Positions 29,146 through 47,847 of a DNA stretch of 64,000 nucleotides are shown piece by piece. The DNA is taken from assembly GCA_963662465.1 (NCBI GenBank), contig OY759599.1:1-64000 (forward strand), read 5' to 3'. A program made the translations under genes and the position numbers. The number at the start of each line of letters is the position of its first letter. The stretch's first letter is position 1. The notes beneath the pieces were generated by a model that was not told the DNA's origin, made no database searches, and worked only from the letters and a program-made list of their open reading frames with translations. The stretch comes from Desulfatiglandales bacterium (lineage in GTDB: Bacteria; Desulfobacterota; DSM-4660; Desulfatiglandales; Desulfatiglandaceae).

Positions 29146-29172
29146 CGGGTTCGACTCCCGCCGCCTCCACCA
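29146..29172 (+). other. att site: displaced tmRNA (ssrA) 3' end
   Basis: CGGGTTCGACTCCCGCCGCCTCCACCA without upstream gene body; IHF consensus TATCAATAGGTTG at 29189-29201; TTGTG(C/T)C(C/T) x3 at 29231-29261. Confidence 0.85.
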
Positions 29173-29259
29173 ATAATATTTCAAGCAATATCAATAGGTT
29201 GAGTCAATAAGGCAACCCCGAAATAGGCGATTGTGCCCAAAATTGTGCCTATTTTGTGT

Positions 29260-30564
29260 CTAAATCGGTTGTCTTTTTTCATTGGCGGCCTCCATATACT
29301 GTCTCTCAAAGGCGGAACCGTCTTGCCTTGTGAGGTTGGGGATATAGCGGCCATACGTTCTGTAGACCATGGAAGTGTCGACGTGCCCCAGGGTTCTGGC
29401 TACCCACTCCGGTGTTTCACCGGCCGCCAGCGCCCAGGATGCAAAGGTGTGTCGGGTTTCATACATACGTCGGTATCTAATGTCCGTTTTCTTCAAAACC
29501 CTTGCCCATACTTCCCTGAGCTTATCCTGGAGGATCGGCCTTCCCTCCGTATTTACGAACACATACGGGCTATCAAGGTAATGATTTAGTGCCCTTTGCT
29601 GCTTCAAACATTTCTTAATGCTCGGCCTGATTTTGATACTCCGTCTGCTTTCTTCGGTCTTAAGGTCAGACTTTTCTCTGTTGCGCACCCTGCTTAACTC
29701 AATATGGATATACTCATTATCAATTGCTTTCCATTTGAGTGCAACCTGCTCAGAAGGCCTGAGGCCTGTTTGAATCGCGAAATCGAAGTAGGGTTTGTAC
29801 CAGGGCAGCATGATTTTCATGACCGTTTCCCACTCCTCAAAGCTGAAGGGAAATATCCTGATTTTCCTCACTTTCGGGAGCTTGAGCCTTGAAAATGGAT
29901 CCGGAAGATCGGTCCAGCCGTATTCATCTATCGCATCTCTTACGATTATCCGCAACGGGATCATGACATTCTGAATTGTCTTTCCCGAAATGGGCTGTCC
30001 GTACCGGTTTTTCTTGCTCTTGAGATTCGCGACAAATTTTTTCATCCCAACCTTCGAGCAGATCTCCTTAAAAGATGTATCTTTAAAGTAGGGGAGATGG
30101 TGCATTTTGAGAATGGTGGTGTAGTCTTTGACTTGACTGAAATTCATCCCTGGTTCCATTTCATCCCACCACTTCTTTACATATTCCCCAAATAGCACCT
30201 CATCAGGGTCCTTTACGACGTTCTTTCCTTCCAGTATGGCAAAATACGCTTTCTTTTTGCTGCAAGGAAACCTTTCCGAAAATTCAAATACACCATTTTC
30301 AATTTCGGCTACTACGAGATCAAGCTGCTTACGAACGATATTTCGATTGGATGAGGTGTCTTTCAGACCGGACGGTTCGCGTACACGTTCATCCAGATAC
30401 CGGAAATCCACCCACAATTTTCCACTACGGCTATAAACCCTTCCTTTTTTTCCCGCATTTAGCAGACTACGCTTTCTCTTTTTCTCTTCATCCGTGCGGT
30501 AACGGGATATTTCGATGACTTTTAATCTTTCCACAAAAAGCCCCCTTTCCGCTTCTTCAACCAC
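29260..30564 (-). CDS. Tyrosine integrase with N-terminal arm-binding domain
   Basis: TGLRPSE, LKT, YETRHTFAS, LGH....MV...Y. Confidence 0.95.
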   Translation of the reverse strand: MVEEAERGLFVERLKVIEISRYRTDEEKKRKRSLLNAGKKGRVYSRSGKLWVDFRYLDERVREPSGLKDTSSNRNIVRKQLDLVVAEIENGVFEFSERFPCSKKKAYFAILEGKNVVKDPDEVLFGEYVKKWWDEMEPGMNFSQVKDYTTILKMHHLPYFKDTSFKEICSKVGMKKFVANLKSKKNRYGQPISGKTIQNVMIPLRIIVRDAIDEYGWTDLPDPFSRLKLPKVRKIRIFPFSFEEWETVMKIMLPWYKPYFDFAIQTGLRPSEQVALKWKAIDNEYIHIELSRVRNREKSDLKTEESRRSIKIRPSIKKCLKQQRALNHYLDSPYVFVNTEGRPILQDKLREVWARVLKKTDIRYRRMYETRHTFASWALAAGETPEWVARTLGHVDTSMVYRTYGRYIPNLTRQDGSAFERQYMEAANEKRQPI

Positions 30565-30634
30565 CTCCTTTCTGTCCGGATATCACCATAACATGGCTAA
30601 CACGAACCGGAAGAGGAGGTCAATAGAATAGAGG

Positions 30635-30862
30635 TCATATGTTTATCAAACCCTTTGGGCGATTGTCTGATCGAGGGTAACCACCGGAATTGCGGTGCAA
30701 CCATTGTTGAACTTCGCTCCATACAAAAAGAAGTTTTCTGGATGTAGGCTTAAGATAATGGACATTCTTTTTGAGTTCATTTTTCCAAACGAGATTCCGG
30801 ATGGTACCGGGTGCCATCTTTATACGTTCGCTGAGTTCGACTGTGGTAAGATACTCTTCCAT
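30635..30862 (-). CDS. Excisionase-like HTH
   Basis: YLT..ELS.RIK....TIRN...HY.KP..RK.LF.W; upstream of integrase. Confidence 0.8.
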   Translation of the reverse strand: MEEYLTTVELSERIKMAPGTIRNLVWKNELKKNVHYLKPTSRKLLFVWSEVQQWLHRNSGGYPRSDNRPKGLINI

Positions 30863-30874
30863 TCCGATGCCTTT

Positions 30875-31951: not shown

Positions 31952-32052
31952 TTTCTCCTCCGCTCAGTGAAAAGGCCTGAACGAACCTCCCTAACAGGAA
32001 GGTTCAAAGCTTTCACCACATTAAGCGGATGAAAAAAGGGATGCATTTCACC

Positions 32053-32652
32053 CTAAAGAGAGTTTTTAATGAAATACCATAAATGATGTGCCAGTCGGGA
32101 TGGATTCAAGGCGAGCAAATCAGGGGGAAAGAATTCTGTATTTCGTTTCCGATAAACAGCCGCGATACGCAGTTTGGCATTCCAGTCCAGTTGGTCAACA
32201 TTGTCGATGAAAACCCACTCCATATACTTTTCCCTCTCAACCTCCTTTATGGATTCTGCCAATCGGGACAATATCAGCTCCATTCCCTCCAGTTTGGTGT
32301 CAGAGGCATCCATGAGCGCCACATCATAACCATCGTCGTGAGCGCCCGGGTAATTTTTTCTGAGCAGGGAAACGGCCTCGGCAAGGGCCTCTTCGGTGGA
32401 AAGGTGTCGGGGAAGGCGAAGCCCGGTCTTGTAGACGTGGGAAACAAACCTGCCGATTATTCTATTGAAGTCACAATGGGAACAACCTTCTTCGGTCTCC
32501 CATCGAAATGCCTGTGCCGCCTGATCGATGGGGTCATCAATTTCATTAGCCATCTGTTTTCCATCGAGGAGCATCATGATGGCATCGATGGCCTTGTCTG
32601 CCGAATGATCGGTATCAGAACTCCTCATAGGTGAACTCCTCGGGTGCTTCAC
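32053..32652 (-). CDS. Hypothetical protein, paralogous domain copy 1
   Basis: Aligns by eye with C-terminus of 34834-36486 and N-terminus of 32615-34810. Confidence 0.65.
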   Translation of the reverse strand: MKHPRSSPMRSSDTDHSADKAIDAIMMLLDGKQMANEIDDPIDQAAQAFRWETEEGCSHCDFNRIIGRFVSHVYKTGLRLPRHLSTEEALAEAVSLLRKNYPGAHDDGYDVALMDASDTKLEGMELILSRLAESIKEVEREKYMEWVFIDNVDQLDWNAKLRIAAVYRKRNTEFFPPDLLALNPSRLAHHLWYFIKNSL

Positions 32653-34810: not shown

Positions 34811-34833
34811 GTATCCCCCCCTTTTTTATGTCC

Positions 34834-36486: not shown

Positions 36487-36587
36487 CTTACAGAGAGAGG
36501 CCTATATCGGGACCATGGTCTACAACAAGGTCAGCAAGGTCCCGGGCACCGAAAAAAGAAAGAGAAATCCGGAATCAGAATGGGTGA
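36470..36587 (+). pseudogene. Large serine recombinase fragment
   Basis: Frame reading TILQREAYIGTMVYNK...RKRNPESEWV resembles the IL.N..Y.G..YN...EW recombinase motif. Confidence 0.5.
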
Positions 36588-36692
36588 ATGGGATTGTTTA
36601 CGAATCAACCTCCGGAGGATTGTTTCGCACGAAAAATTCAGGGGCCTGAATTGTTAGTGCAACAACAAAAAAATAACCGCGTAATCTGTGAA

Positions 36693-37042
36693 ATGCGCCT
36701 GTCGGAGATGCCGCTAAGCGGTGCCCCGTTAAATTGGTGGAACCACAGCGTATTTATCTGGGGTGCCAAGAAAAGCATCAAGAGGGCAATGGCCGCTGAG
36801 TGCAGCCGGAAACTGGGCTGTAAGGCCAAGCAGGAAACCCAACGACGATGTCGACCTCTAAAAGATGGTGAAAGCCTTTAAGCAGGATTGCAGAAAATGG
36901 GCGATGGACCTTCTTTAACAACAGCGGAATCGGGATTCCCTGTGCATGCCTTACGACAAGAGTATCGGGAGAGCCGTACAGTGGAAATCTCTACCTACGG
37001 TTCGACGAGGACCTCGGGATTAAACCCCCGAGGTTACTCTAC
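36693..37042 (+). ncRNA. Degenerate ORF-less group II intron (5' end approximate)
   Basis: Domain V GAGCCGTA..GAAA..TACGGTTC at 36971-37003, domain VI hairpin ending CTCTAC, candidate 5' ATGCG. Confidence 0.7.
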
Positions 37043-37526
37043 CGGTTCACACAACTAAATCCCTTTTTGCTTCTACCTGCCCCGTGAAACCGTTGTTGCA
37101 GTTGTTTCACTGGGGTTTAACCGGGGTGCCAGAAACCCCTTGTCGTTAATAACCGGGTACAGACCTCAACATAACAACCACCAAGAGTCAACGGCAGATT
37201 TGACCCCATGCCCTTTGATGCACATCCCAAGGTCACTGAAGGTGTAAAACCACGACCCGGCATCGAGTGGCAGGTGACTTCAATATAAGGACGTTATAAC
37301 CAACACCCAAATAACGGCAATAAGGAAGGCCTGACCCCATCATCACAACCCTCTAACGCATCCAAATCCGTGTAACCCAAAGGGCGGAGCTGTCTTCAAG
37401 ATTTGACTGCAAAACAAAACCAAAAACCGTGTCATCCGTGAAATCCGCGCCAAAAAAACTAAAGAAACCACCAACGTCCCCTGCACCAATTTGTGTTTCC
37501 GCTTTTCACATATGAGGTAACCAGTC

Positions 37527-37751
37527 ATGAAAAGTCGCATCTTTGATAAACATTTTCCGACGATTCTTGGGGCAGGCAGTGTAATGGAAATCTGGCCAAC
37601 GGAAAATTATGATCGTTATATGCCAGACCCTATTCCGGCAAATAGCCTCAAGGGATATTGGATGAACGTTAACTCGTACGTGTGCAAAGGCATTGTGCAA
37701 TATGAGTTGGATTGCCATACCAGACTAGCCGAAAGTCTAAATGATGAATAA
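37527..37751 (+). CDS. Small hypothetical protein
   Basis: GAGG RBS; G.GSV.EI.P...W..V motif. Confidence 0.45.
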   Translation: MKSRIFDKHFPTILGAGSVMEIWPTENYDRYMPDPIPANSLKGYWMNVNSYVCKGIVQYELDCHTRLAESLNDE

Positions 37752-38043
37752 TAAGCGAAGCCTGACCCCCTAATTTTATGGTCTCGTCCCCCTACCTTTC
37801 CGAATACGAACTGAAGAAGAGGGAGTTTAGGGATCGTACGAAAAGGTACGCTTCGGCTGTTAGTGCCAACGTTCCCCATTACTCCCCAAATGACAAAGAG
37901 AGCAAAATACCCTCAGTCCATGAGAAATGCAGTTGCGTAGCAACGTCCCCCATTCCACAGACCTCAGGAAATTGGGAACCGCTATAAAAATCTGTTGTCA
38001 TTTTGGCGTCATTAATTTATCCTGTTTGTAAAGAAGGAGGTGT

Positions 38044-38334
38044 ATGATGACGCTGAACAAAACAGAAGAAAGAATTCCTGCCCGAATGCCCCATGAGGTT
38101 TACGAGCGAATTGTTGCGGCTGCCCATACTGTCGGAGCCACACTGAACCAGTTTCTTGTTCAGGCGGCTATTGACAAAGCGAATGAAATTCTGGAAAGGG
38201 AGCGCATTATTTCTCTTACTTCAAAAGACGCAGATACGCTTTTTCATCTGATCGATAATCCGCCTGAACCGAATGATCATCTCAAAGCAATTATGAATCA
38301 GAGAGAGGCAGAGGCGCTTTTGTGCCGGAAATAG
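38044..38334 (+). CDS. DUF1778/TacA antitoxin
   Basis: ERI.AR....AA...G.TLNQF...AA...A..I....L...D...L.NPP.PN. Confidence 0.88.
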   Translation: MMTLNKTEERIPARMPHEVYERIVAAAHTVGATLNQFLVQAAIDKANEILERERIISLTSKDADTLFHLIDNPPEPNDHLKAIMNQREAEALLCRK

Positions 38335-38825
38335 GTTCTCTTTTTCGCCATCATGACCGGGCCGGATTTGATTGCGGAGTTCCAGCACTGAACGGTTTTC
38401 TCAAGTTCACGGCCAGGCAGCATGGTGATAAAGGGATTTCACGCACATTTGTTTTAACCGGGCCGGAAAACCCATCCATCATTCTGGGCTATTTTACACT
38501 GACACTCTGTGAAGTCAAAACAGAACATCTTCCAGCCTTATATGCCAGGAAATTTCCGAAACACGGGCTTCCAGCCGTTCGACTGGCCCGCCTGGCCGTT
38601 GACACGCGATTTCAGGGTCGTGGATATGGTGGACGTCTTCTTGCCGAAGCGATCCATCGGACGGTTTTGATTGCGGAACATGCAGGCGTGATTGGACTGT
38701 TTGTGGATGCGAAAGATGAAACTGCCTGTCTGTTTTATCAACGGTATGATTTTAAGTCTCTTCCGGACAATATCCGGAAATTGTTTCTGCCGATTGAAAC
38801 CCTACGAAAAGGGTCCCTGCGATAA
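38322..38825 (+). CDS. GNAT toxin (TacT/AtaT family)
   Basis: HDR..FDCG...LN.FL, LARLAVD...QG.G.G, VDAK.E.A..FY..Y. Confidence 0.9.
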   Translation: MPEIGSLFRHHDRAGFDCGVPALNGFLKFTARQHGDKGISRTFVLTGPENPSIILGYFTLTLCEVKTEHLPALYARKFPKHGLPAVRLARLAVDTRFQGRGYGGRLLAEAIHRTVLIAEHAGVIGLFVDAKDETACLFYQRYDFKSLPDNIRKLFLPIETLRKGSLR

Positions 38826-38844
38826 CTTCAAAAAGAAGGACCCG

Positions 38845-39006
38845 GAAGCCATCAGGAAGAACCCGGAAAAGTTCCCGGCAGATTTTATATTCGAGTTGAA
38901 CGAAAAGGAACAGGATTTTTTAAGGTCGAAAATTTCGACCATAAAGACAGGAAGGGGCAAGCACGGAAAATTTGCCACAAAGGCTTTCGCGGAACAAGGC
39001 ATTTGA
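38845..39006 (+). pseudogene. ORF6N-domain fragment
   Basis: AIRKNPEKFPADFIFEL...LRSKIST...GRG.H....AF.EQG. Confidence 0.65.
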
Positions 39007-39324
39007 TATTCGACAAAGGAAAAACAGGCGCGGTATGGAAAACACGGCAAATAGAAATATGAGAGAAACGCAAGAACGCATGGGCGTCCCCAAGGGCCCC
39101 AGAATATGCTGGTCAGCTGGGTGAGATCCATGCCCTGGGTTTATAATGCGTGCCCTAATCAAGTCCTTAACCCCTAAATCTTAAATCCTAATAACCACAA
39201 TAAATAAACCCTGACCCCCTAATAAAAAATCCGTGTAATCCGTGAAATCCGCGCCAAAAAAAGAAAAAACAGTCATCCCCAACCCCAATAACGACAATAA
39301 AGAAAGCCTGACCCCCTGATTGTT

Positions 39325-39534
39325 ATGACCCATGTCGCAGGTTTTCCATTTTCCATCGTGAACTTTCACAGTATTTATGCCGCGCCCAAAGATTATCTCC
39401 TGGAACTGGCCGGCAGACAGAACCTACGCATTCGGCTTCGGCCGCCATACCGGGAAAACCTGTCGCAGGCCTTTGGCAAGTATTTTATGCGTGTTGGGCT
39501 TCCTCTGGATATTCGAGCGTTTGCTCGCAGTTAG
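39325..39534 (+). pseudogene. 3' fragment of conserved hypothetical gene
   Basis: RL.PPYRE.LSQAF...FMRVGLP C-terminal motif. Confidence 0.5.
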
Positions 39535-40342
39535 ATAGGATGTCCCCATTATAATACAAGCGTAAACTAGTGAAACAAGCAACGTCCCCCATTATTTTTT
39601 TGACAGGTTCGAAATAGTTACATTCAAGTATCCAGTCGAATGTTGTACTTTGACCTCCACCTCTCAGATTTATAGGAATTTCCTTTAAGTAGCCATTTAC
39701 TATTATTTTTGTGCCAGGGCATGACCTCTTTTCAGATATTGGCGATATAAGGTCTTGTTTTAAGAAAATTTTCATTTTTTTTGGTTGTTCACCACCGTCA
39801 AGGGTTTCAATATCTTCTTCAATCGTCATATGTTGGGCATCTATCAATTCTTTAGAAAGCATTTTGAATTTACCCTTACGCCCACATCCACATCTTGAAG
39901 GCTCTCTAAATTTCTGTTCAAGTTGAAGAAGTGGTATGATATTTCCACATGAAGGGCATTCAAATTTTGATGTTACAACTTGAGGTCTAATGTCGCTTTT
40001 TTGTCGAATAGTTCCTTGAACACAAATGAATTTTTCTAAATGTTTGCTTCGTAAGTCTCTGATTCGCTTTTTCTGACTTTTTGGAATATTTTTAATCCTT
40101 ACAATTACTTCAATATTATTTTTGATAGCGAGATCAAATAATGAAATTGATATACTTACTGCCTTAAGGGATTCCTCAGGATTTTCAATCAGGTCTTCTG
40201 CTAAATTGATATTCTGTTTTGATATTTCATTAAAATCCATAACGAAATATCTATCCCCTTTTCTTACAGATTCTATAAGGGTGTCATAATAGAGGATTTC
40301 TATTAATTTTCTGTATTCACCTATTTGTTCTTGGGTTTCCAT
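39485..40342 (-). CDS. mcm: Archaeal MCM helicase N-terminal half (no AAA+ domain)
   Basis: LAEDLIENPEE, IRDLRSKHL, QKSDIRPQV...KFECPSCG, CGCGRKGKF, DAQ...IEE, GGEQPK, LKQDL, PG.KI.V.G; similarity ends near 39600. Confidence 0.88.
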   Translation of the reverse strand: METQEQIGEYRKLIEILYYDTLIESVRKGDRYFVMDFNEISKQNINLAEDLIENPEESLKAVSISISLFDLAIKNNIEVIVRIKNIPKSQKKRIRDLRSKHLEKFICVQGTIRQKSDIRPQVVTSKFECPSCGNIIPLLQLEQKFREPSRCGCGRKGKFKMLSKELIDAQHMTIEEDIETLDGGEQPKKMKIFLKQDLISPISEKRSCPGTKIIVNGYLKEIPINLRGGGQSTTFDWILECNYFEPVKKIMGDVACFTSLRLYYNGDILSNCEQTLEYPEEAQHA

Positions 40343-41088
40343 TGTATAATTTGTTTAGGAGATAATTTTCTATAGCATTCTTTATGCAGAAATACTCCAT
40401 TGTACACTTCTGAATAATCTTTTGAGTCTTTGTGAATAGGGCGCTTACATTTAGCACAGTCACCTATCTTGTTTTTTTCTATATCAGCATCTTCATTGAT
40501 TTCTCCGATTTTAGATTTGTATATTTTATTGAAAGAGATTTTTCTTCTTTCGATATTCGCATAGTCACTTTGATAAAGATATTTGCCATATATCTCATCT
40601 AAGAATTGTTCAACAACTGGTTTGAAATCATCAGAGAGTTTGAATAGTTTTGTTTTTTTATAACTTCTTTTGCCATTTGGATGAATCATATTCCATGTTT
40701 CTCTTATAGCTTTATTCTCATTAGAGTCTTCATGCAATTCTTCAACAATATTCTTCGTTTCAAAGTGAAATAATAAATCTCTTAGGTCTTTGCCATAACC
40801 TAGATTGAAATGCATTGTTAGTTCCCAAAGGCTTGAGACTCCAACGTTATATAGGACATAAACTAATTTGCTTTTCGTTTTATCAAGGAATATAGAAAGG
40901 ATATCTCTGAAGTTTCTTTCAAAATTCAGATTTATATTTTGATCATTATGGATTTCGAGTTTTGAGACAAAATCACAGATTACACATACTCTTCTCTGAA
41001 ATTTGTTTTCAGTGGGTGTGATTGTTGCCACCTCTTTCAAATTTATCCGGCCTTGCAGAGAAATCAGTAATTTCTTCAGGATCAACAA
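40321..41088 (-). CDS. Hypothetical wHTH-like protein with C-terminal CxxC..HxxC finger (start uncertain)
   Basis: AT-rich ORF overlapping the MCM start; CAKC...HKEC. Confidence 0.55.
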   Translation of the reverse strand: MLILKKLLISLQGRINLKEVATITPTENKFQRRVCVICDFVSKLEIHNDQNINLNFERNFRDILSIFLDKTKSKLVYVLYNVGVSSLWELTMHFNLGYGKDLRDLLFHFETKNIVEELHEDSNENKAIRETWNMIHPNGKRSYKKTKLFKLSDDFKPVVEQFLDEIYGKYLYQSDYANIERRKISFNKIYKSKIGEINEDADIEKNKIGDCAKCKRPIHKDSKDYSEVYNGVFLHKECYRKLSPKQIIQWKPKNK

Positions 41089-41169
41089 GCCAAATGAAAT
41101 TAGATCCTTTTATGAATAGTTTATTATCTGAAGTAATATTTTTTAGAATTCCGATTGCTTTTCTTTTAT

Positions 41170-41799
41170 TAAAAAGTAAACCACTACCTCTGGTAGTGGA
41201 ATAAAAAAAGGTTCTACCGGTGTATTGAATATGACGAGTATTATATGTCTTCCTGGAAGGTGCGAAACTAACAGGAGGCATATAATGACTCGTCAACGTC
41301 AATTCAAGAAATTAGCACATTCTTTGTATGAGTGTAAGTACCATGTGGTGTTTTGCCCGAAATATCGCTACAAAATATTGCAGGAAGAAGTGGCAAAATA
41401 TGTGATGCAACAGATATATCGGTTATGTAATCAAAAAGATGACGTAGAAGTGGTGGAAGGTAATGTGCAAATTGACCATGTTCACCTGGTCGTATCAATC
41501 CCTCCGAAATACGCCATATCGCAGTTCATGGGGTTCCTGAAGGGGAAACTGGCTCTACAACTATTTGACCGTTTTCCTCAACTGCGAAAAAAATACTGGG
41601 GACAACATGTGTGGTCGAGAGGCTATTGTGTGAGTACGGTAGGCTTAGATGAAGAGCGGATCAAAAAGTATGTAAAATGGCAGCATAGTAAAGATAAAGA
41701 TGCCCATGTGACGCAAGGTAAATTGTTCAAATAGAATAGGTACCATGCACCTTCCAGGTGCATTAATTCAAGCCACCACCTTTGGTGGTGGTCATTGAC
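41170..41799 (+). mobile_element. IS200-type element (tnpA only)
   Basis: Subterminal hairpins CCACTACC..GGTAGTGG and CCACCACC..GGTGGTGG, inserted after TTAT, ends TGAC, no TSD. Confidence 0.9.
41285..41734 (+). CDS. tnpA: IS200/IS605 Y1 transposase
   Basis: YHVVFCPKYR, DHVH, KGK, WSRGY.VSTVG, YVKWQ; AGGAGG RBS. Confidence 0.96.
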   Translation: MTRQRQFKKLAHSLYECKYHVVFCPKYRYKILQEEVAKYVMQQIYRLCNQKDDVEVVEGNVQIDHVHLVVSIPPKYAISQFMGFLKGKLALQLFDRFPQLRKKYWGQHVWSRGYCVSTVGLDEERIKKYVKWQHSKDKDAHVTQGKLFK

Positions 41800-41967
41800 T
41801 CTTTCTTTCAGCAACAACAAACATTCCTAGAAAGTTTCTGTACTGCTCAACTAAACTATCATTTGTCAAATATACACCTCTAAACTTATCTTATCTAAAA
41901 CCGTAAAATATATATACTCATTACCCTTAGAATTCACTAAGTTGTTCAATCTTAATGTTTGAGTGAT

Positions 41968-42168
41968 TTAGCCTTGTTCTTTCAGGGTGGGATCAGGACC
42001 AGGGCTGGGTGCTCTGGTCTGCTTTTTTTTAATATCATCTGGAATATCTACAGTTACTATACTTCCTATTTCAACAACATCATTATACATTGGTGGGACA
42101 GAAATAAATTTTCTTGTGTTTCCATGTCTATCCTTTCCAGCTTTGATTGCCTTTGCTCTAAACCTCAT
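41968..42168 (-). CDS. Small AbrB-like regulator
   Basis: F.AK.IK.G....R..ISVP......G..V.V.I pattern; leaderless after TATA box. Confidence 0.55.
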   Translation of the reverse strand: MRFRAKAIKAGKDRHGNTRKFISVPPMYNDVVEIGSIVTVDIPDDIKKKQTRAPSPGPDPTLKEQG

Positions 42169-42191
42169 ACACACACGATAAACACAGCATA

Positions 42192-42204
42192 TATTTAAAC
42201 TTTC
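42192..42204 (-). promoter_or_regulatory. Archaeal BRE-TATA promoter
   Basis: GAAAGTTTAAATA ending 23 nt before ATG 42168. Confidence 0.7.
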
Positions 42205-42229
42205 CTAACTCCTTTTAAGTGGTTAATAA

Positions 42230-42515
42230 ACTCTACGCCATTTTACGTAGAGTGTTTTTGCAACATGTTATAAAAAACTATCAAAAAGTATGATTTTTGC
42301 CGGAAAATTGACTCTACGGAATTATCACGTAGAGTCCTATTTTGACCTATTTGTTGCCTCTGAAAAATAACTCTACGGTCAAAACACGTAGAGTGGTTTT
42401 TATGCATTTACCGTGTTTAACTTAACTACTACTCTACGTATTTTCTACTAGTAGTTAGTCTACGTTACATAAATATATATTATATAATATACTCTACGGA
42501 ATTATCGCGTAGAGT
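42230..42515. repeat. Array of five ACTCTACG-N8/9-CGTAGAGT palindromes
   Basis: Starts at 42230, 42311, 42370, 42431 (right arm degenerate), 42491. Confidence 0.92.
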
Positions 42516-42553
42516 TAAATCCTTATTTTTTGATGAAAATGTCAAAATCCACC

Positions 42554-42567
42554 AAAAAGTATATATA
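42554..42567 (+). promoter_or_regulatory. Archaeal BRE-TATA promoter
   Basis: AAAAAGTATATATA ending 24 nt before ATG 42592; no SD. Confidence 0.65.
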
Positions 42568-42591
42568 CTCAAGCATGTATGAATAAAAAAT

Positions 42592-43803
42592 ATGGCAGAA
42601 ATTGATATCCTTGCACCTTTCCGAAACATCAGCCCAGGCCAATTCATATCCAGATATTCTGATTGGATTCTTTTTATACTCCTGATCTTCTTTTTTTGGT
42701 CCGTTATCACAATCTCACTCAAAAAACGCTTTGGTGATTCAAAGGCATTTAGAATCCTAGCAACCTCTACAGCCCTATTATTATCAGTTAGTACATACTA
42801 TATGATTTACAAAGGCAAACTTAACATATCTCTAGAAGGGCTTGGTATGTTTGGAGCCATGCTCGTCCTGATTGTGATATTTTTCATTCTTTTTGCTCTG
42901 CAAAGAAACTTTAATATGAAAACTAAACTTTCTCTTCCATTAGGATTTGTCCTGTTTTATTTGTCGCTAGTTAGACTAACACCTAACATCATGAATGATA
43001 TCCAAAATATATTTCCATTTGCAAAAGCAATTATGGTAGGACTATTTTTATTTTCATTATATAGGGTGATAGTCGAGTTCATAAAACATTCAAAAGGAGA
43101 TTTGAAGTTAGAAGCACAAAAAATAGAAAATATTCGAATCCCACCAAAAGATGTGCCAGAGATCAACCATGAGCTGAAGGATGACAAGAAGGAAAAAAAA
43201 CTGCTGAAAGGCAAAACCTTGAAACTTACAAAGATGGAGATCAATACTGTTGATGATATAGAAAACCTACTAGGCCACCTAATTAAATTGATTAAGGAGA
43301 AAGGCAAAAATATCAGTCAGGATGAAACCTTGCAGATCTCCAACTATCTTAGGCAATTGTCTAACAAAGAAAATATTCTCATCAGAAGTATGCCTATTTT
43401 GAAAAGGCAGGCAGAAATCTTCAAATCAAAACATAGAAAAGATATCAATGAACTCCAAAAGCGATACCAGGAAGCCAAGGATAATCCTAAACAACAGGAA
43501 ATAATAAAAGAAGAAATCTCATTCCAAAAGCGAATGATTGAAGTGCTGGACTTCATCGAAACCTATGAAAATAGAATCGTAGAATTCACACAATCACTCA
43601 ACCAAACAATCTCTAAGTCTATGATTAAGCTCAGAAGTATTTACCCTCACGAATGCGTGGAATATCTGGAATCTGCCAGAAAATCGATTGAAGGCATGAA
43701 ACATATTTTCAAAAAACAAAAAGAGCTTGAGAAATATGTCCTCTCGCTGAACAAGAAAACAATTAAGGATCTGAAGAAAGAAAAAAAGGCAGATCAATCT
43801 TAA
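42592..43803 (+). CDS. Membrane protein (about 5 TM) with long C-terminal coiled coil
   Basis: Hydrophobic first ~165 aa, then K/E/Q-rich heptads. Confidence 0.8.
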   Translation: MAEIDILAPFRNISPGQFISRYSDWILFILLIFFFWSVITISLKKRFGDSKAFRILATSTALLLSVSTYYMIYKGKLNISLEGLGMFGAMLVLIVIFFILFALQRNFNMKTKLSLPLGFVLFYLSLVRLTPNIMNDIQNIFPFAKAIMVGLFLFSLYRVIVEFIKHSKGDLKLEAQKIENIRIPPKDVPEINHELKDDKKEKKLLKGKTLKLTKMEINTVDDIENLLGHLIKLIKEKGKNISQDETLQISNYLRQLSNKENILIRSMPILKRQAEIFKSKHRKDINELQKRYQEAKDNPKQQEIIKEEISFQKRMIEVLDFIETYENRIVEFTQSLNQTISKSMIKLRSIYPHECVEYLESARKSIEGMKHIFKKQKELEKYVLSLNKKTIKDLKKEKKADQS

Positions 43804-43930
43804 AATTAGAACAACGCTCAAAGATTAATCTTTTGCCTTCTGATTTGGCACGCCAGACATCTGTTTGACTCAATGCATTGTTAAGAAAGAAGTTTCTTTG
43901 TAGAAATTGGTTTCGCGCTTTCAATTTTAG

Positions 43931-44101
43931 TCACCTCAAATTGCCAAAATAGGCATTATAGTTTTTACCGAAAGAAGGGTTTGAATTGCTCACCTTTTTT
44001 CTATTCTCATCCTCAATAACGAGGCAAATATTTCCGTTCTGAATCCTATATTTGTCGATTACTTTGCCATCAATTGTCTGCAATGAATTCATATAACCCA
44101 T
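43931..44101 (-). CDS. Small hypothetical protein, upstream region cut by IS701
   Basis: MGYMNSLQTIDGKVIDKY...; TATA-like GAAAGATTTAAAA at 46101-46089 on the far side of the IS. Confidence 0.4.
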   Translation of the reverse strand: MGYMNSLQTIDGKVIDKYRIQNGNICLVIEDENRKKVSNSNPSFGKNYNAYFGNLR

Positions 44102-44336
44102 TTTTGTCGAAGCCTTTAGTTCTACTTTGTCACTCTCCATTTGAGGGTTATTTTCAATATATGCTATTGATTTAATTTATATTTTTCTCTTGACATGGTC
44201 AGAATAACATGTTAGTTTCGACCCATGAAAAAACGAAATCAATGGGGCGTTGGTATGAGTACCAACAGCCCACCAGAACAATCGTAGTCTTGATAAAGGA
44301 GCGACCCATGCCAACAGCCCCCTCGGGGGCATAGAT

Positions 44337-45662
44337 GTGTATTTTGGTGAGTTCCACGATAGATATTCTCCGTTATTTCAAACACATAGCAGAGTAGCGG
44401 CAAGAAAGTCTCTTCAATATTTTAAAGGCTTGGTCCAAGCAAAGAAAAAGAACATGGAGCGGATGGCCGAGGCTGTTCCTTTTTCAGATGATCAAGCTCT
44501 TCAACATTTTTTGACAAATTCTCGGTGGGATGAACAACTGATTGTCGACCAAATTGCGGCAGACGCAAACAATCATATTGGGGGAAAACAAGACAGCTGT
44601 TTGATCATTGATGAAACGGGGTTCCCCAAGAAAGGAGATAAGTCGGTTGGGGTTAAAAGGCAGTGGTGTGGGCAACTTGGGAAGGTAGACAATTGTCAGG
44701 TAGGCGTTTTTTCAGCGCTTGGGTGCAGGGAACACGCTACTCCTGTTGGCTTCAAATTGTACCTTCCGGAAGACTGGACTGATGATAAGGAAAGATGTAA
44801 AGCTGCTGGTATTCCAGATGAATCCATTGTTTTTTACAGCAAGCATGACCTTGCTTTCCAGCTGGTCCTTGAGGCCCGGAAACAGGGCATTCAATTCGGC
44901 TGGGTCGGTGCAGATGGTTTCTACGGGGAAAGCCCTGCCTTTTTACGGTCTTTGGATCAAATCAATGAAACCTTCATGATTGACGTTCATAAGAATCAAC
45001 GTATTTATCTCGAAAACCCGGAGCCGGTAGTTCCACAGAGAAGATCAAATAAAGGTCCAGAGCCGAAAAAGGCAAAAGCCCAAACAGAACCTGTCAGGGT
45101 CGATAAGTGGTCAGAACAACAGCCGGAAGATGCTTGGCAGAGAACGAATGTAAGAGACACGACCAAGGGAAAGCTTCAGGTCGACGTTCTGCATAGACGT
45201 GTATGGCTTTGGGACGGGGAGGAACTGGAGGCACATTGTTGGCACCTGATTGTTCGGAGGGAGGTTGCTGGAAATAAAGTAAAATTTACTTTGAGCAATG
45301 CTCCAGAGAACACTTCGCTGGAACGTTTGATATTTATGCAGGCACAGCGCTACTGGATAGAGCGTTCATTTCAAGACGCAAAGGTTGAATGTGGTTTAGG
45401 GGAGTACCAGGTGCGAAAGTGGCGGAGTTGGCATCACCACATGGCAATGGTCATGATGGCAATGCTATTTTTATTAGAGCAACGCCTTTTATATAAAAGG
45501 GATATCCCCTTATTGAGTTGTTTTGACATTGTTTGCATTCTTTCATTTCTTTTACCCCAAAGAGCCTTCACAACGGATGAAGTTTTTCGGCAAATGGAAA
45601 TTCGCCACAAAAAGCGTCAATCTGCAATTGACTCAGCATATCGTAAACAGCTCGCAGAATAA
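44337..45662 (+). CDS. IS701 transposase
   Basis: KNMERMAE, IIDETGFPKKG..SVGV.RQWCGQLGKVDNCQ, ADGFYG, R.WIE..FQDAK...GL..YQ.R.W..WHHH. Confidence 0.95.
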   Translation: MYFGEFHDRYSPLFQTHSRVAARKSLQYFKGLVQAKKKNMERMAEAVPFSDDQALQHFLTNSRWDEQLIVDQIAADANNHIGGKQDSCLIIDETGFPKKGDKSVGVKRQWCGQLGKVDNCQVGVFSALGCREHATPVGFKLYLPEDWTDDKERCKAAGIPDESIVFYSKHDLAFQLVLEARKQGIQFGWVGADGFYGESPAFLRSLDQINETFMIDVHKNQRIYLENPEPVVPQRRSNKGPEPKKAKAQTEPVRVDKWSEQQPEDAWQRTNVRDTTKGKLQVDVLHRRVWLWDGEELEAHCWHLIVRREVAGNKVKFTLSNAPENTSLERLIFMQAQRYWIERSFQDAKVECGLGEYQVRKWRSWHHHMAMVMMAMLFLLEQRLLYKRDIPLLSCFDIVCILSFLLPQRAFTTDEVFRQMEIRHKKRQSAIDSAYRKQLAE

Positions 45663-45685
45663 GCGGAAGGTTGGTTGTGGGAAAG

Positions 45686-46040
45686 CAGCAATTCTAATTA
45701 CGGCTTTTGAGTTAAGCCGCAGTTTGTTTTTTTTGTTGCCATTCACGGGTAGCGAATTCACCTTATTCCCAGATTCTGTTCAGGAATAAGGGAAAAAACA
45801 TTAGGCGCTGGATGTTATTGTAGGGGCAAGCCCCTGTGCCTGCCCTGCTGATGCTGTCCAAACGCCTTAATAGAGGACAAGCAGGGTAACCACGGGGGGA
45901 TTGCCCCTACGGCACGACATAAAACTGGATGTGTAATGAGATGTGTTTGTGGGAGCAACTTTCAGAACTACGAGAAATTGTGGAGGAATGCCGTCTGTAC
46001 TGCGTTTTGCGATTAAACGACATCATAATGAGAATTGCTG
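45686..46040. mobile_element. MITE inside IS701
   Basis: TIR CAGCAATTCT(A/C)ATTA(C/T)G, 9-bp TSD GTGGGAAAG (45677-45685, 46041-46049). Confidence 0.85.
45820..45910. repeat. GTAG-type REP doublet (REPIN-like)
   Basis: GTAGGGGCAAGCCCCTGTGCCTGCCCTG...CAGGGTAACCACGGGGGGATTGCCCCTAC. Confidence 0.75.
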
Positions 46041-46406
46041 GTGGGAAAGTGACAAAGTAGAATTAGTTGTTTGGGAAATACTGGAAGCTTTTAAATCTTT
46101 CGGTTTAGGGTGAGCAGCCTTGGATTTTCGAGGTATGGTTACAAAATAGGATTTCTTGTCTATGTATTTAAGCGATTATCAGCTGAAAGGGAAGGAGCAT
46201 TGGAATATCTTTCGCAGAACTACCCTCACTTGCCCGCCAATGCCTTTCTGGGCGTAATGGTTCAGACAGCTTAAATGGCAAAAAAGTGATCCAGCATAAT
46301 AGATTGTGTATAATGACGATGGCAGGCGGGGATGGTAAAAGAAGTGCAAAAGATCCTGGCCCGATCGGAAACCGAGGTTTTATCCTGAAATTTTATCGTT
46401 TTTGTG

Positions 46407-46435
46407 TTGACAATATTTTTGGCCCCGATTATAAG
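46407..46435 (+). promoter_or_regulatory. Sigma70 promoter of polysaccharide locus
   Basis: TTGACA-17 bp-TATAAG. Confidence 0.6.
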
Positions 46436-46490
46436 GCCGTTCTATGTAAAACGTTTCGATCAGGCATTCATCCTTCTGGCATAGAATAAA

Positions 46491-47051
46491 ATGGAAATCT
46501 CGGAAAAATCTTTTCAGATATTAGATGCCCTCGACACGCATGAAGTCGTCAGCCAACGTCAGCTGGCTAAACACTCCAGTGTAAGCCTTGCCCAGGTCAA
46601 TTATCTCCTCAAGAGGCTTTTAGAAAAAGGCCTTGTGAAGGTAAAAAACTTCCAAAAGAAACCCAATAAATCAAGCTATCTCTATCTCTTAACACCAAAA
46701 GGCCTGGAAGCCAAATCTCAGGTGGCCGTCCGATTTGTAAAATCCAGACTGAAAGAATACAACCATCTCAAAGACTCATTGACCAAAAAGTTGACCTCTA
46801 TTGAAAGAACGGTCCCCGTCAGGGTTATTTTTGTTGGACCTCTTATGGTCAAAGACTTTGTGGATTCCGTAATAAAAGAGAACGGTCTGAAGCTTATTGT
46901 AGTTGGTCACTATAACCAATGGAAGGATCTGAAAGAAACCGAACAGGAATCGTTCGATGTCGCGCTATTGTTAGACGGTAATAAAGAAGGCATAAAGAAG
47001 ATCAGTAATCACCTGAATATTCCCAGAGATAAGTTTGCCGCCTTGTGGTAA
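46491..47051 (+). CDS. MarR-family EPS-associated regulator
   Basis: SQRQLA....SL..VNY.LK.L.EKGLVK.KNF.....K..Y.Y.LTPKG...K. Confidence 0.88.
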   Translation: MEISEKSFQILDALDTHEVVSQRQLAKHSSVSLAQVNYLLKRLLEKGLVKVKNFQKKPNKSSYLYLLTPKGLEAKSQVAVRFVKSRLKEYNHLKDSLTKKLTSIERTVPVRVIFVGPLMVKDFVDSVIKENGLKLIVVGHYNQWKDLKETEQESFDVALLLDGNKEGIKKISNHLNIPRDKFAALW

Positions 47052-47230
47052 AAATGTTCGAAACGTGCAGTAAAAAACAAGCTATCTAAACCAATATTAA
47101 GTGAAATTGAAAGGTTATATCAAGTCATCCAGCGTAACCCAAGGGGCGGAGCTGTCTCAACATCTTTTGCCCCCTCCAGAAGATTGAAGTTCATCACGTC
47201 CATGCTTACTGAATAAAACAGCAGAACTTC

Positions 47231-47320
47231 AACCCAAAACCCAAAACTCAAAACCCAAAACCGCTGTTCCAATGCCCGAAACTCAAAACCCAAAACTGCT
47301 GTTCCAATGCCCAAAACCGC
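47231..47320. repeat. Heptamer tandem repeats (AAC(C/T)CAA type)
   Basis: Also at ~51221-51252, ~52751-52781, ~54704-54741. Confidence 0.8.
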
Positions 47321-47460
47321 CTTCTTGTAATCCAAAGAGCGGGGAGCTATGTGCGAAGTACCTTAAGAACCATGATCTTACTGCCCTCTGCCCCCTGACA
47401 ACTGCACCCTTTAACAACGACAATAAGGAAAGCCTTACACGAATTGGAGGAGAAGGAACT

Positions 47461-47847
47461 ATGCCGACGGCCCTGGAATTGCTCCCAAAAGGTTGGCGTT
47501 ATTACATTGAGGCTGCGTCCCGCCGGCCCGCCCCACCTGAATTGACCCAGGAACAGGAACACCAACGCGAGCAGATTATAGCGCGACTTCAAGAGGTGGC
47601 AGCAATGCTGAAAAGCCGCTTTGGTGTTCGACGAGTTATTTTATTTGGCTCGCTTGCCCGAAAGCTCTCGTTTACTCCTGGTTCAGATGTGGATATAGCC
47701 GTTGAAGGACTGAACACGAAAAAATATTGGCAGGCTTGGAAGTTGGCTGAGGAGATGATCGGAGATCGCCCAGTGGACTTTGTCCAAATTGAGACAGCGA
47801 AAGAGTCTCTCAAGCGAGCGGTTCAACGCTATGGAATAGACCTATGA
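47461..47847 (+). CDS. Minimal nucleotidyltransferase (MNT antitoxin)
   Basis: LFGSLA.......SDVDIAVEGL. Confidence 0.9.
   Translation: MPTALELLPKGWRYYIEAASRRPAPPELTQEQEHQREQIIARLQEVAAMLKSRFGVRRVILFGSLARKLSFTPGSDVDIAVEGLNTKKYWQAWKLAEEMIGDRPVDFVQIETAKESLKRAVQRYGIDL

What the first reader, a model, noticed from the sequence alone, without database searches (positions are those of the whole stretch)
39594..46190. Archaeal (DPANN-like) replicon fragment resident in a bacterial island
This AT-rich block has an archaeal-type MCM N-terminal half, a wHTH/Zn-finger gene, an Sm-like gene and an AbrB-like gene in one operon. Its divergent genes start 23 and 24 nt after BRE-TATA boxes with no SD, as in leaderless archaeal transcripts, and a third TATA-like box lies at 46101-46089. 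The MCM motifs (QKSDIRPQV, CGCGRKGKF, GGEQPK) recall Woesearchaeota/Pacearchaeota proteins from memory. Bacterial-type IS200 and IS701 are cleanly inserted within it, which argues against a simple chimeric join. It suggests cross-domain capture of an archaeal plasmid or virus module.
Basis: partly seen in the sequence, partly recalled or inferred. Interest (0 to 1): 0.9.

Follow-up and report, generated by a model that had tools for sequence, protein, structure and literature searches.

The report
Archaeal-type MCM remnant in bacterial island
A bacterial chromosome carries, twice, the broken remains of a small mobile replication module whose helicase gene clearly descends from tiny DPANN archaea, a rare sign that a core archaeal replication gene recently entered the bacterial mobile gene pool.

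Summary
Window 39594-46190 is a roughly 4-kb AT-rich block (GC about 0.25-0.40; genome 0.495) interrupted by two host insertion sequences. It encodes the N-terminal 250 residues of a canonical MCM (Pfam MCM_OB, 7e-24), cut at the N-C linker. No MCM ATPase half was found elsewhere in the genome.

In trees this MCM nests among DPANN (Woesearchaeota/Nanobdellota-labelled) MCMs. It lies in an 8-row clade whose other 7 members share a contig, or a contig length, with homologues of its neighbours: a 239-aa Zn-ribbon protein or a 403-aa membrane protein. The host is a bacterium. MCM_OB was found in 0 of 400 other genomes of its phylum.

The block is not a misassembly. A second copy lies 110 kb away, in a tandem tmRNA-integrated island. 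That copy lacks both IS and carries two different ones.

The block is chimeric. All genome-assigned relatives of the membrane protein in my tree, except the DPANN outgroup, are bacterial. The two closest come from the host's own family, and more distant ones sit beside Orc1/Cdc6-like genes.

Best reading: a decayed remnant of a mobile element family, probably bacterial, that borrowed a DPANN MCM. The Sm-like, AbrB-like and wHTH labels got no support.

The parts
29146..29172 (+). 27-nt repeat of the 3' end of the tmRNA gene (att-like); left end of island copy A
   Evidence: The tmRNA gene lies at genome 8081765-8082118. Its last 27 nt occur only there and at window 29146-29172. The A and B left junctions align from this base.
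29260..30564 (-). Tyrosine integrase of the island, identical in both copies
   Evidence: NCBIfam XerA/XerC-type hits. Window 29146-41170 is 99.99% identical to genome 8082092-8094116.
39558..39591 (.). 34-nt stretch at the left junction, identical to the sequence directly after the 3' end of a HUH (Y1) transposase-like ORF elsewhere in the genome
   Evidence: The third copy is at genome 7039460-7039493. It directly follows an ORF with an HUH-like motif (my reading of the translation) and abuts a truncated aminotransferase-like ORF. The short-read unitigs of X1 branch here exactly as that third copy predicts.
39485..40342 (-). MCM gene remnant. Residues 1 to about 250 (nt 40342 to ~39601) form the N-terminal helical, Zn-finger and OB domain. 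The last 35 codons are read from unrelated flank, and the AAA+ and WH domains are missing.
   Evidence: Pfam MCM_OB 7.1e-24. PHROG 10371 DNA helicase 1.1e-39, matching profile positions 27-260 of 683. Alignment A1. 76% identity to a full-length 686-aa MCM on L091. No MCM-specific AAA+ match in the genome.
40321..41040 (-). 239-aa partner protein (wHTHZn) with a C-terminal Zn-ribbon-like C-x2-C...H-x2-C; its end overlaps the MCM start by 22 nt
   Evidence: 6 family members among 5.8 billion proteins. Alignment A2. An 80% identical homologue lies directly upstream of the MCM in L091. In the AF2 model only the C-terminal part reaches moderate confidence.
41009..41869 (-). ORF76, a small gene upstream of wHTHZn. 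IS200 splits it in this copy into 41009-41170 and 41801-41869. It is intact in copy B (L010 3955-4185).
   Evidence: The intact 76-aa ORF is in copy B. It is conserved in L091 with an in-frame 3-nt indel. AGGTG lies 5 nt before its start.
41171..41800 (+). IS200/IS605-family insertion sequence of the host (transposase 41225-41734)
   Evidence: Pfam Y1_Tnp 3.8e-38. Three further copies at 98.9-99.8% DNA identity over 637-643 nt elsewhere in the genome, and an empty site in copy B.
41968..42168 (-).
   Evidence: ORF. One credible homologue (P0194, 48%) among 1.84 billion representatives. No family assignment.
42230..42515 (.). Array of four perfect palindromes, ACTCTACG-N8/9-CGTAGAGT, plus one half-site, in the divergent intergenic region. 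Candidate operator or origin repeats.
   Evidence: 4 matches to CTCTACG-N(8-12)-CGTAGAG against 0.00 expected. All 9 ACTCTACG octamers of the 64-kb window fall here, against 0.46 expected. Repeat family D1.
42561..42568 (+). TATATATA box ending 24 nt before the TM403 ATG. A matching TTTAAATATA at 42200-42191(-) ends 21-22 nt before the ATG of the 66-aa gene.
   Evidence: Upstream sequences printed. The sigma-70 pattern scan shows no enrichment (21 found, 21.6 expected).
42592..43803 (+). TM403: 403-aa protein. By my reading of the translation it has an N-terminal hydrophobic half and a K/E-rich, probably coiled-coil C-terminal half. Full-length ORF in both copies.
   Evidence: No Pfam or PHROG hit. 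55 homologues. Those at 57-74% share contig lengths with module MCMs. Tree.
43931..44101 (-). 56-aa small gene convergent with TM403. In this copy the ORF runs on to 44140 into the IS701 end.
   Evidence: Copy B ORF at L010 12814-12984. A weak match (37-41% over 34-38 aa, E 3e-5 to 9e-5 in small local databases) lies about 1 kb from the TM403 homologue of G007, with two ORFs between. No family hit.
44116..46062 (+). IS701-family insertion sequence of the host (transposase 44337-45662)
   Evidence: Pfam DDE_5 3.3e-60. Two more copies at 99.8-99.9% over ~1950 nt, and an empty site in copy B. The IS-less joint 44115->46063 is present in contigs of metagenome runs X4 and X5.
46063..46187 (.). Right end of the AT-rich block
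   Evidence: GC rises at the equivalent place in copy B. One X4 metagenome contig runs on with unlike sequence after 46187, and that sequence is not found in this genome.

Best explanation
The block is the decayed remnant of a small, AT-rich mobile replication module. It is carried as cargo about 10.4 kb inside two related islands that lie in tandem at the tmRNA gene of a bacterium.

Intact relatives exist in metagenomes. One contig, L091, shows the tail of ORF76, wHTHZn and a full-length MCM in the same order. The full module layout is inferred from the IS-free parts of copies A and B together. It is a leftward operon (66-aa gene, ORF76, the 239-aa Zn-ribbon protein, MCM). This operon diverges from the membrane protein TM403 across a 417-nt region that holds four palindromes.

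The MCM gene descends from cellular MCMs of DPANN archaea. TM403 belongs to a family carried on genomic islands of the host's own bacterial family, several of which also carry Orc1/Cdc6-type genes. I therefore infer that the module belongs to a mobile-element lineage that lives in, or exchanges genes with, these bacteria and that recruited an archaeal MCM as its helicase. It is less likely to be a piece of archaeal DNA that strayed directly into a bacterium.

In this genome the helicase was cut at the N-C linker, at a 34-nt sequence also found next to a HUH-transposase-like ORF elsewhere in the genome. The ATPase half is gone, so the module can no longer supply a helicase. Host IS elements (IS200 and IS701 in copy A, an IS21-like and an IS4-like element in copy B) have since landed in it.

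Shown: the gene content, the truncation, the duplication, the IS history, the MCM and TM403 phylogenies and the rarity of MCM in the host's kin.

Inferred: that the palindromes are the binding sites or origin of the module, that the Zn-ribbon protein or the 66-aa protein binds them, that the element's normal host is bacterial, and that the truncation arose through transposition or recombination in the host.
For: Truncated canonical MCM. No other MCM in the genome: only weak AAA+ hits of a kind that ring in all 14 control genomes; the two copies only.

MCM origin:
- Top named hits are Woesearchaeota/Nanoarchaeota at 51-57%.
- All 80 best loci among GTDB species representatives are at 46-55%. 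79 of the 80 carry archaeal titles; one (L065) is titled 'MAG: bacterium'.
- In the careful outgroup-rooted tree the window falls in an 8-row clade (100/100). That clade lies in a 14-row clade (98/93), which is sister to two DPANN MAG rows (95/97), all inside a 47-row clade (98/93) whose other rows carry archaeal, mostly DPANN, labels.
- One of those MAGs (G833) has a single MCM_OB gene.

Module conservation:
- L091 holds wHTHZn (80%) directly upstream of a full-length MCM (76%), with 78.7% DNA identity over 1.6 kb that ends at the truncation point.
- Contig lengths 12235, 73802, 65866, 13096, 45027 and 77120 recur between the MCM, wHTHZn and TM403 hit lists.

Bacterial side:
- Host rRNA and DnaA are bacterial.
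- The TM403 module clade (24 rows, SH-aLRT 100) has as its neighbours rows from G912 and G900 (host family, 44%, E about 1e-106) and from MAGs labelled Desulfobacteraceae and Thermodesulfobacteriota. All deeper branches are bacterial.
- The best of 401 DPANN genomes reached only 25%, E 5e-14.
- TM403 homologues share a contig with Orc1/Cdc6-like genes in G000, G007 and G912. 6 of the 7 other TM403-positive genomes of the class also have Cdc6_C.

Not vertical: MCM-N in 0 of 208 other genomes of the class and MCM_OB in 0 of 400 of the phylum.

Not an artefact: two copies, four different host IS, and empty sites. X1 unitigs tile the stretch with depths 27.7, 35.4, 37.6 and 28.8. Metagenome runs of two other studies hold both the flank and the block at 95-99%.

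Palindromes.
Against: - None of the long metagenome contigs that carry the intact module could be fetched, so their host domain is unknown. Co-occurrence on those contigs is inferred from equal contig lengths alone.
- The three bacterial names (Kosmotogaceae, Desulfobacteraceae, Thermodesulfobacteriota) are bin labels, and mobile contigs are often mis-binned. The two TM403 labels belong to the sister group at 43-46%, not to the module clade itself.
- The low GC (about 0.33), the TATA-like boxes at leaderless distance and the lack of SD before the first genes fit a DPANN-resident element equally well.
- Weak TM403-like matches are more frequent in the DPANN sample (18 of 401, one of them in the unpublished genome G792) than in the even sample of the host phylum (4 of 400).
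- The TM403 tree is a quick tree, rooted on one long DPANN branch, and carries long-branch warnings.
- No binding or replication function of the palindromes has been tested.
Confidence: 0.55

Rival explanations
1. Direct cross-domain capture. The whole block is a fragment of a plasmid or virus of a DPANN archaeon. It entered the bacterial island by illegitimate recombination, and the metagenome relatives are archaeal elements.
For: The MCM nests among DPANN MCMs. GC is about 0.33, as in many DPANN genomes. TATA-like boxes end 21-24 nt before the first ATGs, and there is no SD. Every MCM-N match in PLSDB and INPHARED that was listed by name is from an archaeal plasmid or virus: 37 and 12 records in all, and not every organism was listed. 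TM403-like N-terminal domains give weak matches in 18 of 401 DPANN genomes. wHTHZn, ORF76 and the 66-aa gene have no relatives of known host at all.
Against: The closest genome-assigned TM403 relatives are bacterial and lie in the host's own family (E about 1e-106, against 5e-14 for the best DPANN genome). None of about 160 DPANN-type MCM loci with up to 10-kb flanks holds a wHTHZn or TM403 homologue, L091 aside. No module-clade MCM was seen in DPANN species representatives. The three named relatives carry bacterial labels.
Confidence: 0.3
2. Assembly artefact or contamination. DPANN DNA was wrongly joined into a bacterial contig.
For: Copy B's homology to copy A ends exactly at the last base of the contig. 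Short-read unitigs break at the left junction, inside a 34-nt repeat.
Against: There are two copies in the same context. They share 12 kb of flank at 99.99%, then differ by SNPs and by four different IS insertions, and each of those IS has other copies in the chromosome. The unitig branches at 39558-39591 are fully explained by a third genomic copy of the 34-mer. Unitig depths of flank and block are of the same order, although contig depths are coarse and X1 may be the source sample. Metagenomes of other studies hold both flank and block.
Confidence: 0.02
3. Domesticated fragment. The MCM N-terminal domain (an oligomerising, DNA-binding OB/Zn module), together with wHTHZn and TM403, is kept by the island because it does something useful, for instance interfering with incoming MCM-dependent elements.
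For: The 285-codon frame is open, and the same is true of the wHTHZn and TM403 frames in both copies. ORF76 is intact in copy B. The cut falls precisely at the domain boundary.
Against: The two MCM-N copies are identical, so they say nothing about selection. The window's end branch (0.22-0.24) is about twice that of its nearest relatives. IS elements have hit the operon and its control region in both copies. No expression data could be laid.
Confidence: 0.08

Closest known systems
MCM-encoding mobile elements of archaea (integrated elements, plasmids and viruses that recruited the host mcm gene; Krupovic et al. 2010, known to me only through the text and reference list of PMC5862659)
   Same: A mobile module built around an MCM that branches from within the cellular MCMs of one archaeal lineage, on a long stem branch. 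The plasmid and virus records with MCM-N matches that were listed by name are all archaeal.
   Different: Here the carrier genome is bacterial. The partner genes (wHTHZn, ORF76, the 66-aa gene) have no relatives in PLSDB, IMG/VR or PHROGs. The accessory gene TM403 has bacterial kin. Identity to listed archaeal plasmid and virus MCMs is at most about 30%.
MCM-like helicases of bacterial phages and integrative plasmids (Bacillus cereus prophage MCM; PrimQH-family fusions; passages of Kazlauskas et al. 2018, PMC5862659, read)
   Same: An MCM-family gene inside a bacterial mobile element.
   Different: [quoted passage not shown] Here the protein has the canonical N-terminal Zn/OB domain. It is 46-57% identical to DPANN MCMs and nests among them. 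There is no primase fusion.
Orc1/Cdc6-plus-TM403-like islands of the host's own bacterial class (found here; I know of no published name and did not search for one)
   Same: They share the TM403 family. They also pair it with a replication protein of archaeal type inside an island.
   Different: Those islands have GC 0.40-0.53, carry Orc1/Cdc6 and no MCM, and their TM403 is only 27-44% identical. None of the other block genes is found there, apart from a weak match of the 56-aa gene.

Membership tests
MCM helicase (archaeal/eukaryotic type) | N-terminal domain with OB fold and Zn finger | tested here: met
   Pfam MCM_OB 7.1e-24, 84.4 bits against a cut-off of 24.8. The CPSC...CGCG cysteines are invariant in alignment A1. 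In control genomes the family rings only in the 4 archaea out of 14.
MCM helicase (archaeal/eukaryotic type) | AAA+ ATPase core (Walker A/B, arginine finger) and C-terminal winged helix | tested here: not met
   Homology stops at about residue 250 of roughly 686. Pfam PF00493 gives only weak generic AAA+ hits elsewhere in the genome, of a kind that ring in all 14 control genomes. The gene is a remnant, not a helicase.
DPANN (Woesearchaeota/Nanobdellota-type) MCM lineage | Branches within DPANN cellular MCMs in a rooted tree | tested here: met
   a 16-row clade containing two DPANN MAG rows (95/97), inside a 47-row clade (98/93) whose other rows carry archaeal, mostly DPANN, labels. Caveats: only 248 columns, the root is on two long viral branches, and labels are record titles, many of them the generic 'uncultured Methanosarcinales archaeon'.
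Archaeal plasmid or virus (element resident in an archaeon) | Relatives of the module found in archaeal genomes, archaeal plasmids or archaeal viruses | tested here: not met
   wHTHZn and TM403 are absent from about 160 DPANN-type MCM loci other than L091, and from PLSDB, INPHARED (TM403 only) and IMG/VR. TM403 gives only weak matches in 18 of 401 DPANN genomes. The module-bearing metagenome contigs themselves could not be inspected.
AbrB/SpoVT-type DNA-binding protein (66-aa gene) | Significant match to the family profile, or a swapped-hairpin barrel fold | tested here: inconclusive
   No Pfam hit at E up to 1, no PDB sequence hit at E up to 10, and atlas score 0.80. The AF2 model has pLDDT 56.6 and shows one hairpin only.
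Sm/LSm fold (ORF76 or the 56-aa gene) | Significant match to an Sm-family profile | tested here: not met
   ORF76: SM-ATX at E 0.075, 13.7 bits against a cut-off of 29.8. 56-aa gene: no Pfam hit, PDB hits at chance level (E at least 0.27), atlas score 0.80. Fold not tested.
Integrative island at a tmRNA gene | Integrase next to the 3' end of ssrA, and a direct repeat of that end at the far side | tested here: met
   tmRNA gene. The integrase starts 88 nt downstream of it. The 27-nt repeat occurs only at genome 8082092 and window 29146.

The most novel reading that the evidence does not exclude
There may be an undescribed family of mobile elements of sulfate-reducer-related bacteria that replicate with genuine archaeal-type machinery. 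One branch uses Orc1/Cdc6-like initiators. An AT-rich branch uses a canonical MCM taken recently from DPANN archaea, together with a dedicated Zn-ribbon partner and a palindrome-array origin. If so, an archaeal replicative helicase is working in bacterial cells today, and this window holds a dead copy of such an element.
Probability: 0.3. Interest if true: 0.85.

Novelty: new variant of a known kind. Interest (0 to 1): 0.6.

Why it matters
MCM is the core replicative helicase of archaea and eukaryotes, and bacteria do not use it. The only review text I read (passages of PMC5862659) says that bacterial MCM-like genes are highly divergent and that recent transfer from archaea is unlikely.

Here a canonical MCM N-terminal domain sits in a single-contig bacterial genome. 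It nests among DPANN sequences and shares 46-57% identity with them. It lies beside a gene whose kin are bacterial. That gives a concrete, datable case of an archaeal replication gene entering the bacterial mobile gene pool.

It also points to full-length relatives in metagenomes whose host can now be determined. If those relatives replicate in bacteria, they would give a natural system for studying how an archaeal helicase is loaded and used in a bacterial cell. They would also bear on how DPANN archaea and their bacterial neighbours exchange DNA.

The copy in this window is itself broken and probably inert.

Tried and rejected
- Single-protein scans for MCM-N in metagenome and viral contigs found nothing. 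Alignment-based scans were needed.
- IMG/VR holds only distant MCMs (41%, 37% and a fragment). It holds no wHTHZn or TM403 relatives. PLSDB and INPHARED hold no TM403 relatives, and PLSDB holds no wHTHZn relatives.
- The AF2 models of wHTHZn (pLDDT 53.7) and of the 66-aa protein (56.6) were too poor for fold searches, so none was run.
- Atlas and PDB sequence look-ups of the two small proteins gave only chance-level hits.
- The Rfam E-value scan of 38000-47500 gave two sub-threshold chance matches.
- The sigma-70 scan showed no enrichment.
- I asked whether the contig ends simply overlap (an uncircularised assembly). I rejected this because window 1-29145 has no counterpart before copy B, and the tmRNA/att structure explains the layout.
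- A joint 39262->46489 in one X5 contig would be an 'empty site', but only 29 letters lie on one side and the place is a high-depth repeat, so I do not use it.
- Two loose-end sequences of X4 contigs, at 39596 and 46187, are not in this genome at up to 3 mismatches. They hint only that the block edges are real breakpoints in a relative.
- A blastp of all block proteins against the native-GC islands found only TM403 and a weak 56-aa match.

Full report
**What is there**

The window is the first 64 kb of a single 8.16-Mb contig with GC 0.495. Between about 39596 and 46187 the GC falls to 0.25-0.40. Two insertion sequences interrupt the block.

With the IS removed, the block is about 4 kb. It holds these features:
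- Leftward strand: a 66-aa gene (41968-42168).
- Leftward strand: ORF76. It is split by IS200 in this copy and intact in the second copy.
- Leftward strand: a 239-aa protein with a conserved C-x2-C...H-x2-C (40321-41040).
- Leftward strand, overlapping the previous gene by 22 nt: an MCM gene (40342 downwards).
- Rightward strand: a 403-aa protein (TM403, 42592-43803), which I read as an N-terminal membrane half plus a coiled-coil half.
- A convergent 56-aa gene (43931-44101).
- A 417-nt divergent intergenic region with four perfect palindromes, ACTCTACG-N8/9-CGTAGAGT, and one half-site.

All 9 copies of that octamer in the 64-kb window lie in this region, against 0.46 expected. The gapped palindrome matched 4 times, against 0.00 expected.

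**The MCM is real, canonical and broken**

Pfam MCM_OB scores 7.1e-24. A PHROG DNA-helicase family matches profile positions 27-260 of 683. Alignment with full-length relatives shows homology ending after ...NYFEPV, at the linker between the N-terminal domain and the ATPase. The remaining 35 codons of the ORF come from unrelated flank.

A 3.7-kb metagenome contig (L091) carries the same gene pair with a full-length 686-aa MCM. Its DNA is 78.7% identical over 1.6 kb, and the identity stops at window ~39600. Nothing in the genome supplies the missing half.

The breakpoint abuts a 34-nt stretch (39558-39591). An identical stretch directly follows a HUH-transposase-like ORF at 7.04 Mb. This suggests, but does not prove, that a transposition or recombination event in the host made the cut.

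**Is it an artefact? No**

The whole region is present twice. Window 29146-41170 is 99.99% identical to genome 8082092-8094116. The right half of the block is 98-99% identical, and the flank beyond it is 91-96% identical.

Copy B lacks both IS200 and IS701, so it shows clean empty sites. It carries instead a 5-kb IS21-like element and an IS4-like element in the palindrome region (my reading of the ORFs, no profile run). IS200 has 3 further copies and IS701 has 2 further copies elsewhere in the chromosome, at 98.9-99.9% identity.

Contigs of run X1, which may be the source sample and so is not independent, tile the stretch. Their depths are 27.7, 35.4, 37.6 and 28.8 for flank, block, block and flank. 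Their only branch at the left junction is explained by the third copy of the 34-mer. Contigs from two metagenome runs of other studies hold pieces of both the flank and the block at 95-99% identity, and they also hold the IS701-less joint.

**Host and island**

The genome has three bacterial 16S genes (1594 bits; the bacterial model won the clan competition) and a DnaA above the curated cut-off.

Copy B starts at the 3' end of the tmRNA gene, with a tyrosine integrase next to it. The last 27 nt of the tmRNA gene recur only once, at window 29146-29172, where copy A starts with the same integrase. The layout is therefore tmRNA - island B - a 29-kb phage-like segment (portal, protease, tape measure and P4-type primase) - 27-nt repeat - island A. 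These are tandem integrative islands. The block lies about 10.4 kb inside each island.

**Where the MCM comes from**

The 120 best of 1139 longer homologues are full-length MCMs or intein-containing ones. Of those that carry an organism name, all are Woesearchaeota, Nanoarchaeota or 'archaeon' at 51-57% identity, except one labelled a Kosmotogaceae MAG (59%).

Among GTDB species representatives the best 80 loci are at 46-55% identity. 79 of them have archaeal titles. Many carry the generic title 'uncultured Methanosarcinales archaeon', which I could not verify. One is titled 'bacterium'.

In trees of the N-terminal domain, the window falls in an 8-row clade with support 100. The other 7 members share a contig, or a contig length, with a wHTHZn or TM403 homologue, or (P0004) have a cluster-mate that does. 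P0006 is included only because it groups with P0007.

Rooted on two distant viral MCMs, this clade lies in a 14-row clade (98/93). That clade is sister to two DPANN MAG rows (95/97), and the whole lies inside a 47-row clade (98/93) whose other rows carry archaeal, mostly DPANN, labels. One of the two MAGs has a single MCM_OB gene, so that gene is its cellular MCM.

The stem of the module clade is long (0.34), as expected for a gene recruited by a mobile element.

MCM-N was not found in 0 of 40 relatives, 0 of 208 other genomes of the host's class, or (as Pfam MCM_OB) 0 of 400 other genomes of its phylum. The family rings in 4 of 4 archaeal and 0 of 10 bacterial control genomes.

**Where the rest comes from**

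wHTHZn has 5 relatives among 5.8 billion proteins, none with an organism name. The 66-aa gene has one credible relative among 1.84 billion representatives.

TM403 has 55 homologues. Five of those at 57-74% identity share contig lengths with module MCMs, and the rows at about 54% and above form a 24-row clade (support 100). The neighbours of that clade are proteins of G912 and G900, both in the host's own family (44%, E about 1e-106), and of MAGs labelled Desulfobacteraceae and Thermodesulfobacteriota. All deeper branches are bacterial. In 401 DPANN genomes the best match was 25%, E 5e-14, and most of the 18 matches covered only the membrane half.

Six of the 7 other genomes of the host's class with a TM403 homologue also have an Orc1/Cdc6-type gene (Pfam Cdc6_C). 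In G000 the two genes lie 2 kb apart, in G007 7 kb apart and in G912 23 kb apart on one contig. The G000 and G007 regions are syntenic. Related genomes are not independent samples.

**Reading**

The block is a chimera. It combines a DPANN-derived helicase operon with an accessory gene of a family carried on islands of these bacteria. The simplest account is a mobile-element lineage associated with these bacteria that took up an archaeal MCM. One copy was carried into the tmRNA island, lost its ATPase half, and then became a landing pad for host IS.

Direct capture of a DPANN element remains possible (about 0.3). The intact relatives could not be inspected, and the low GC, the lack of SD and the TATA-like boxes ending 21-24 nt before the two first ATGs fit an archaeal home. 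That promoter argument rests on two genes in AT-rich DNA and cannot be tested here.

**Literature**

I ran two full-text searches and read only the MCM passages of PMC5862659. That paper states that bacterial MCMs had been known only from phages, that it adds integrative plasmids, that bacterial MCMs are highly divergent, and that recent transfer from archaea is unlikely. The Woesearchaeota/plasmid/MCM search listed 10 of 20 papers, and none was on this subject by its title. I have not shown that this case is unpublished.

**Verdict**

This is a new variant of a known kind, an MCM-bearing mobile element. It is interesting mainly as a lead to intact relatives.

Noticed in passing
window 1-29172, with genome 8081765-8161625: There are tandem integrative islands at the tmRNA gene. 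A 108.65-kb unit (copy B plus a phage-like segment with portal, protease, tape measure and P4-type primase) is bounded by 27-nt direct repeats of the tmRNA 3' end. It is followed by a second island that starts with an identical integrase. Copy B's homology to copy A ends exactly at the last base of the contig, inside a gene upstream of a PemK-like ORF that is whole only in copy A.
   Followed up: partly
genome 134001-150000 (L181); Orc1/Cdc6-like gene at genome 144017-145273(+): A bacterial island holds a bona fide Orc1/Cdc6-type gene (Pfam Cdc6_C 5.4e-23, Cdc6_lid 1.7e-10). Beside it are a TM403 paralogue, a SIR2-HerA pair, a nucleoside deoxyribosyltransferase and a Replic_Relax protein. The region is syntenic with a region in another species of the genus. 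Cdc6_C was found in 10 of 208 other genomes of the class.
   Followed up: partly
window 39558-39591 and genome 7039460-7039493: An identical 34-nt sequence marks the MCM breakpoint. It also directly follows a HUH/Y1-transposase-like ORF that sits next to a truncated aminotransferase-like ORF. It may be a transposon end or a recombination site.
   Followed up: partly
window 39148-39434: Two 40-nt direct repeats (39184-39223 and 39281-39320, 85% identical) lie in an A-rich stretch. This stretch reaches very high summed contig depth in two metagenome runs (412 and 230, against about 7-20 around it), so it looks like a widespread short repeat.
   Followed up: no
window 38044-38825: A TacA-like antitoxin (Pfam 2.5e-18) and a GNAT acetyltransferase form a TacT-like toxin-antitoxin pair just left of the block. 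A nucleotidyltransferase gene (47272-47847) lies right of it.
   Followed up: no
window 30875-36486: Island genes next to the integrase: a PrimPol-like protein (NCBIfam 4.1e-28), a 731-aa ATPase with a weak CedD-like hit (2.1e-7), and a 550-aa protein with no family.
   Followed up: no
window 41900-41920 and 42551-42571: Two 21-nt stretches are 86% identical and centred on TATATATA. One lies upstream of TM403. The other points into the 3' end of the 66-aa gene, or, read on the other strand, lies upstream of ORF76. The second may be another promoter or an antisense start.
   Followed up: no
window 46491-47051, with genome 7012088, 7036734, 7065073 and 8116208: A MarR/HTH_24-type regulator has about 37-40% identical paralogues, several of them in regions of sugar-modifying genes that are repeated at 7.0-7.1 Mb and 8.10-8.12 Mb. 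It is not part of the AT-rich block.
   Followed up: partly
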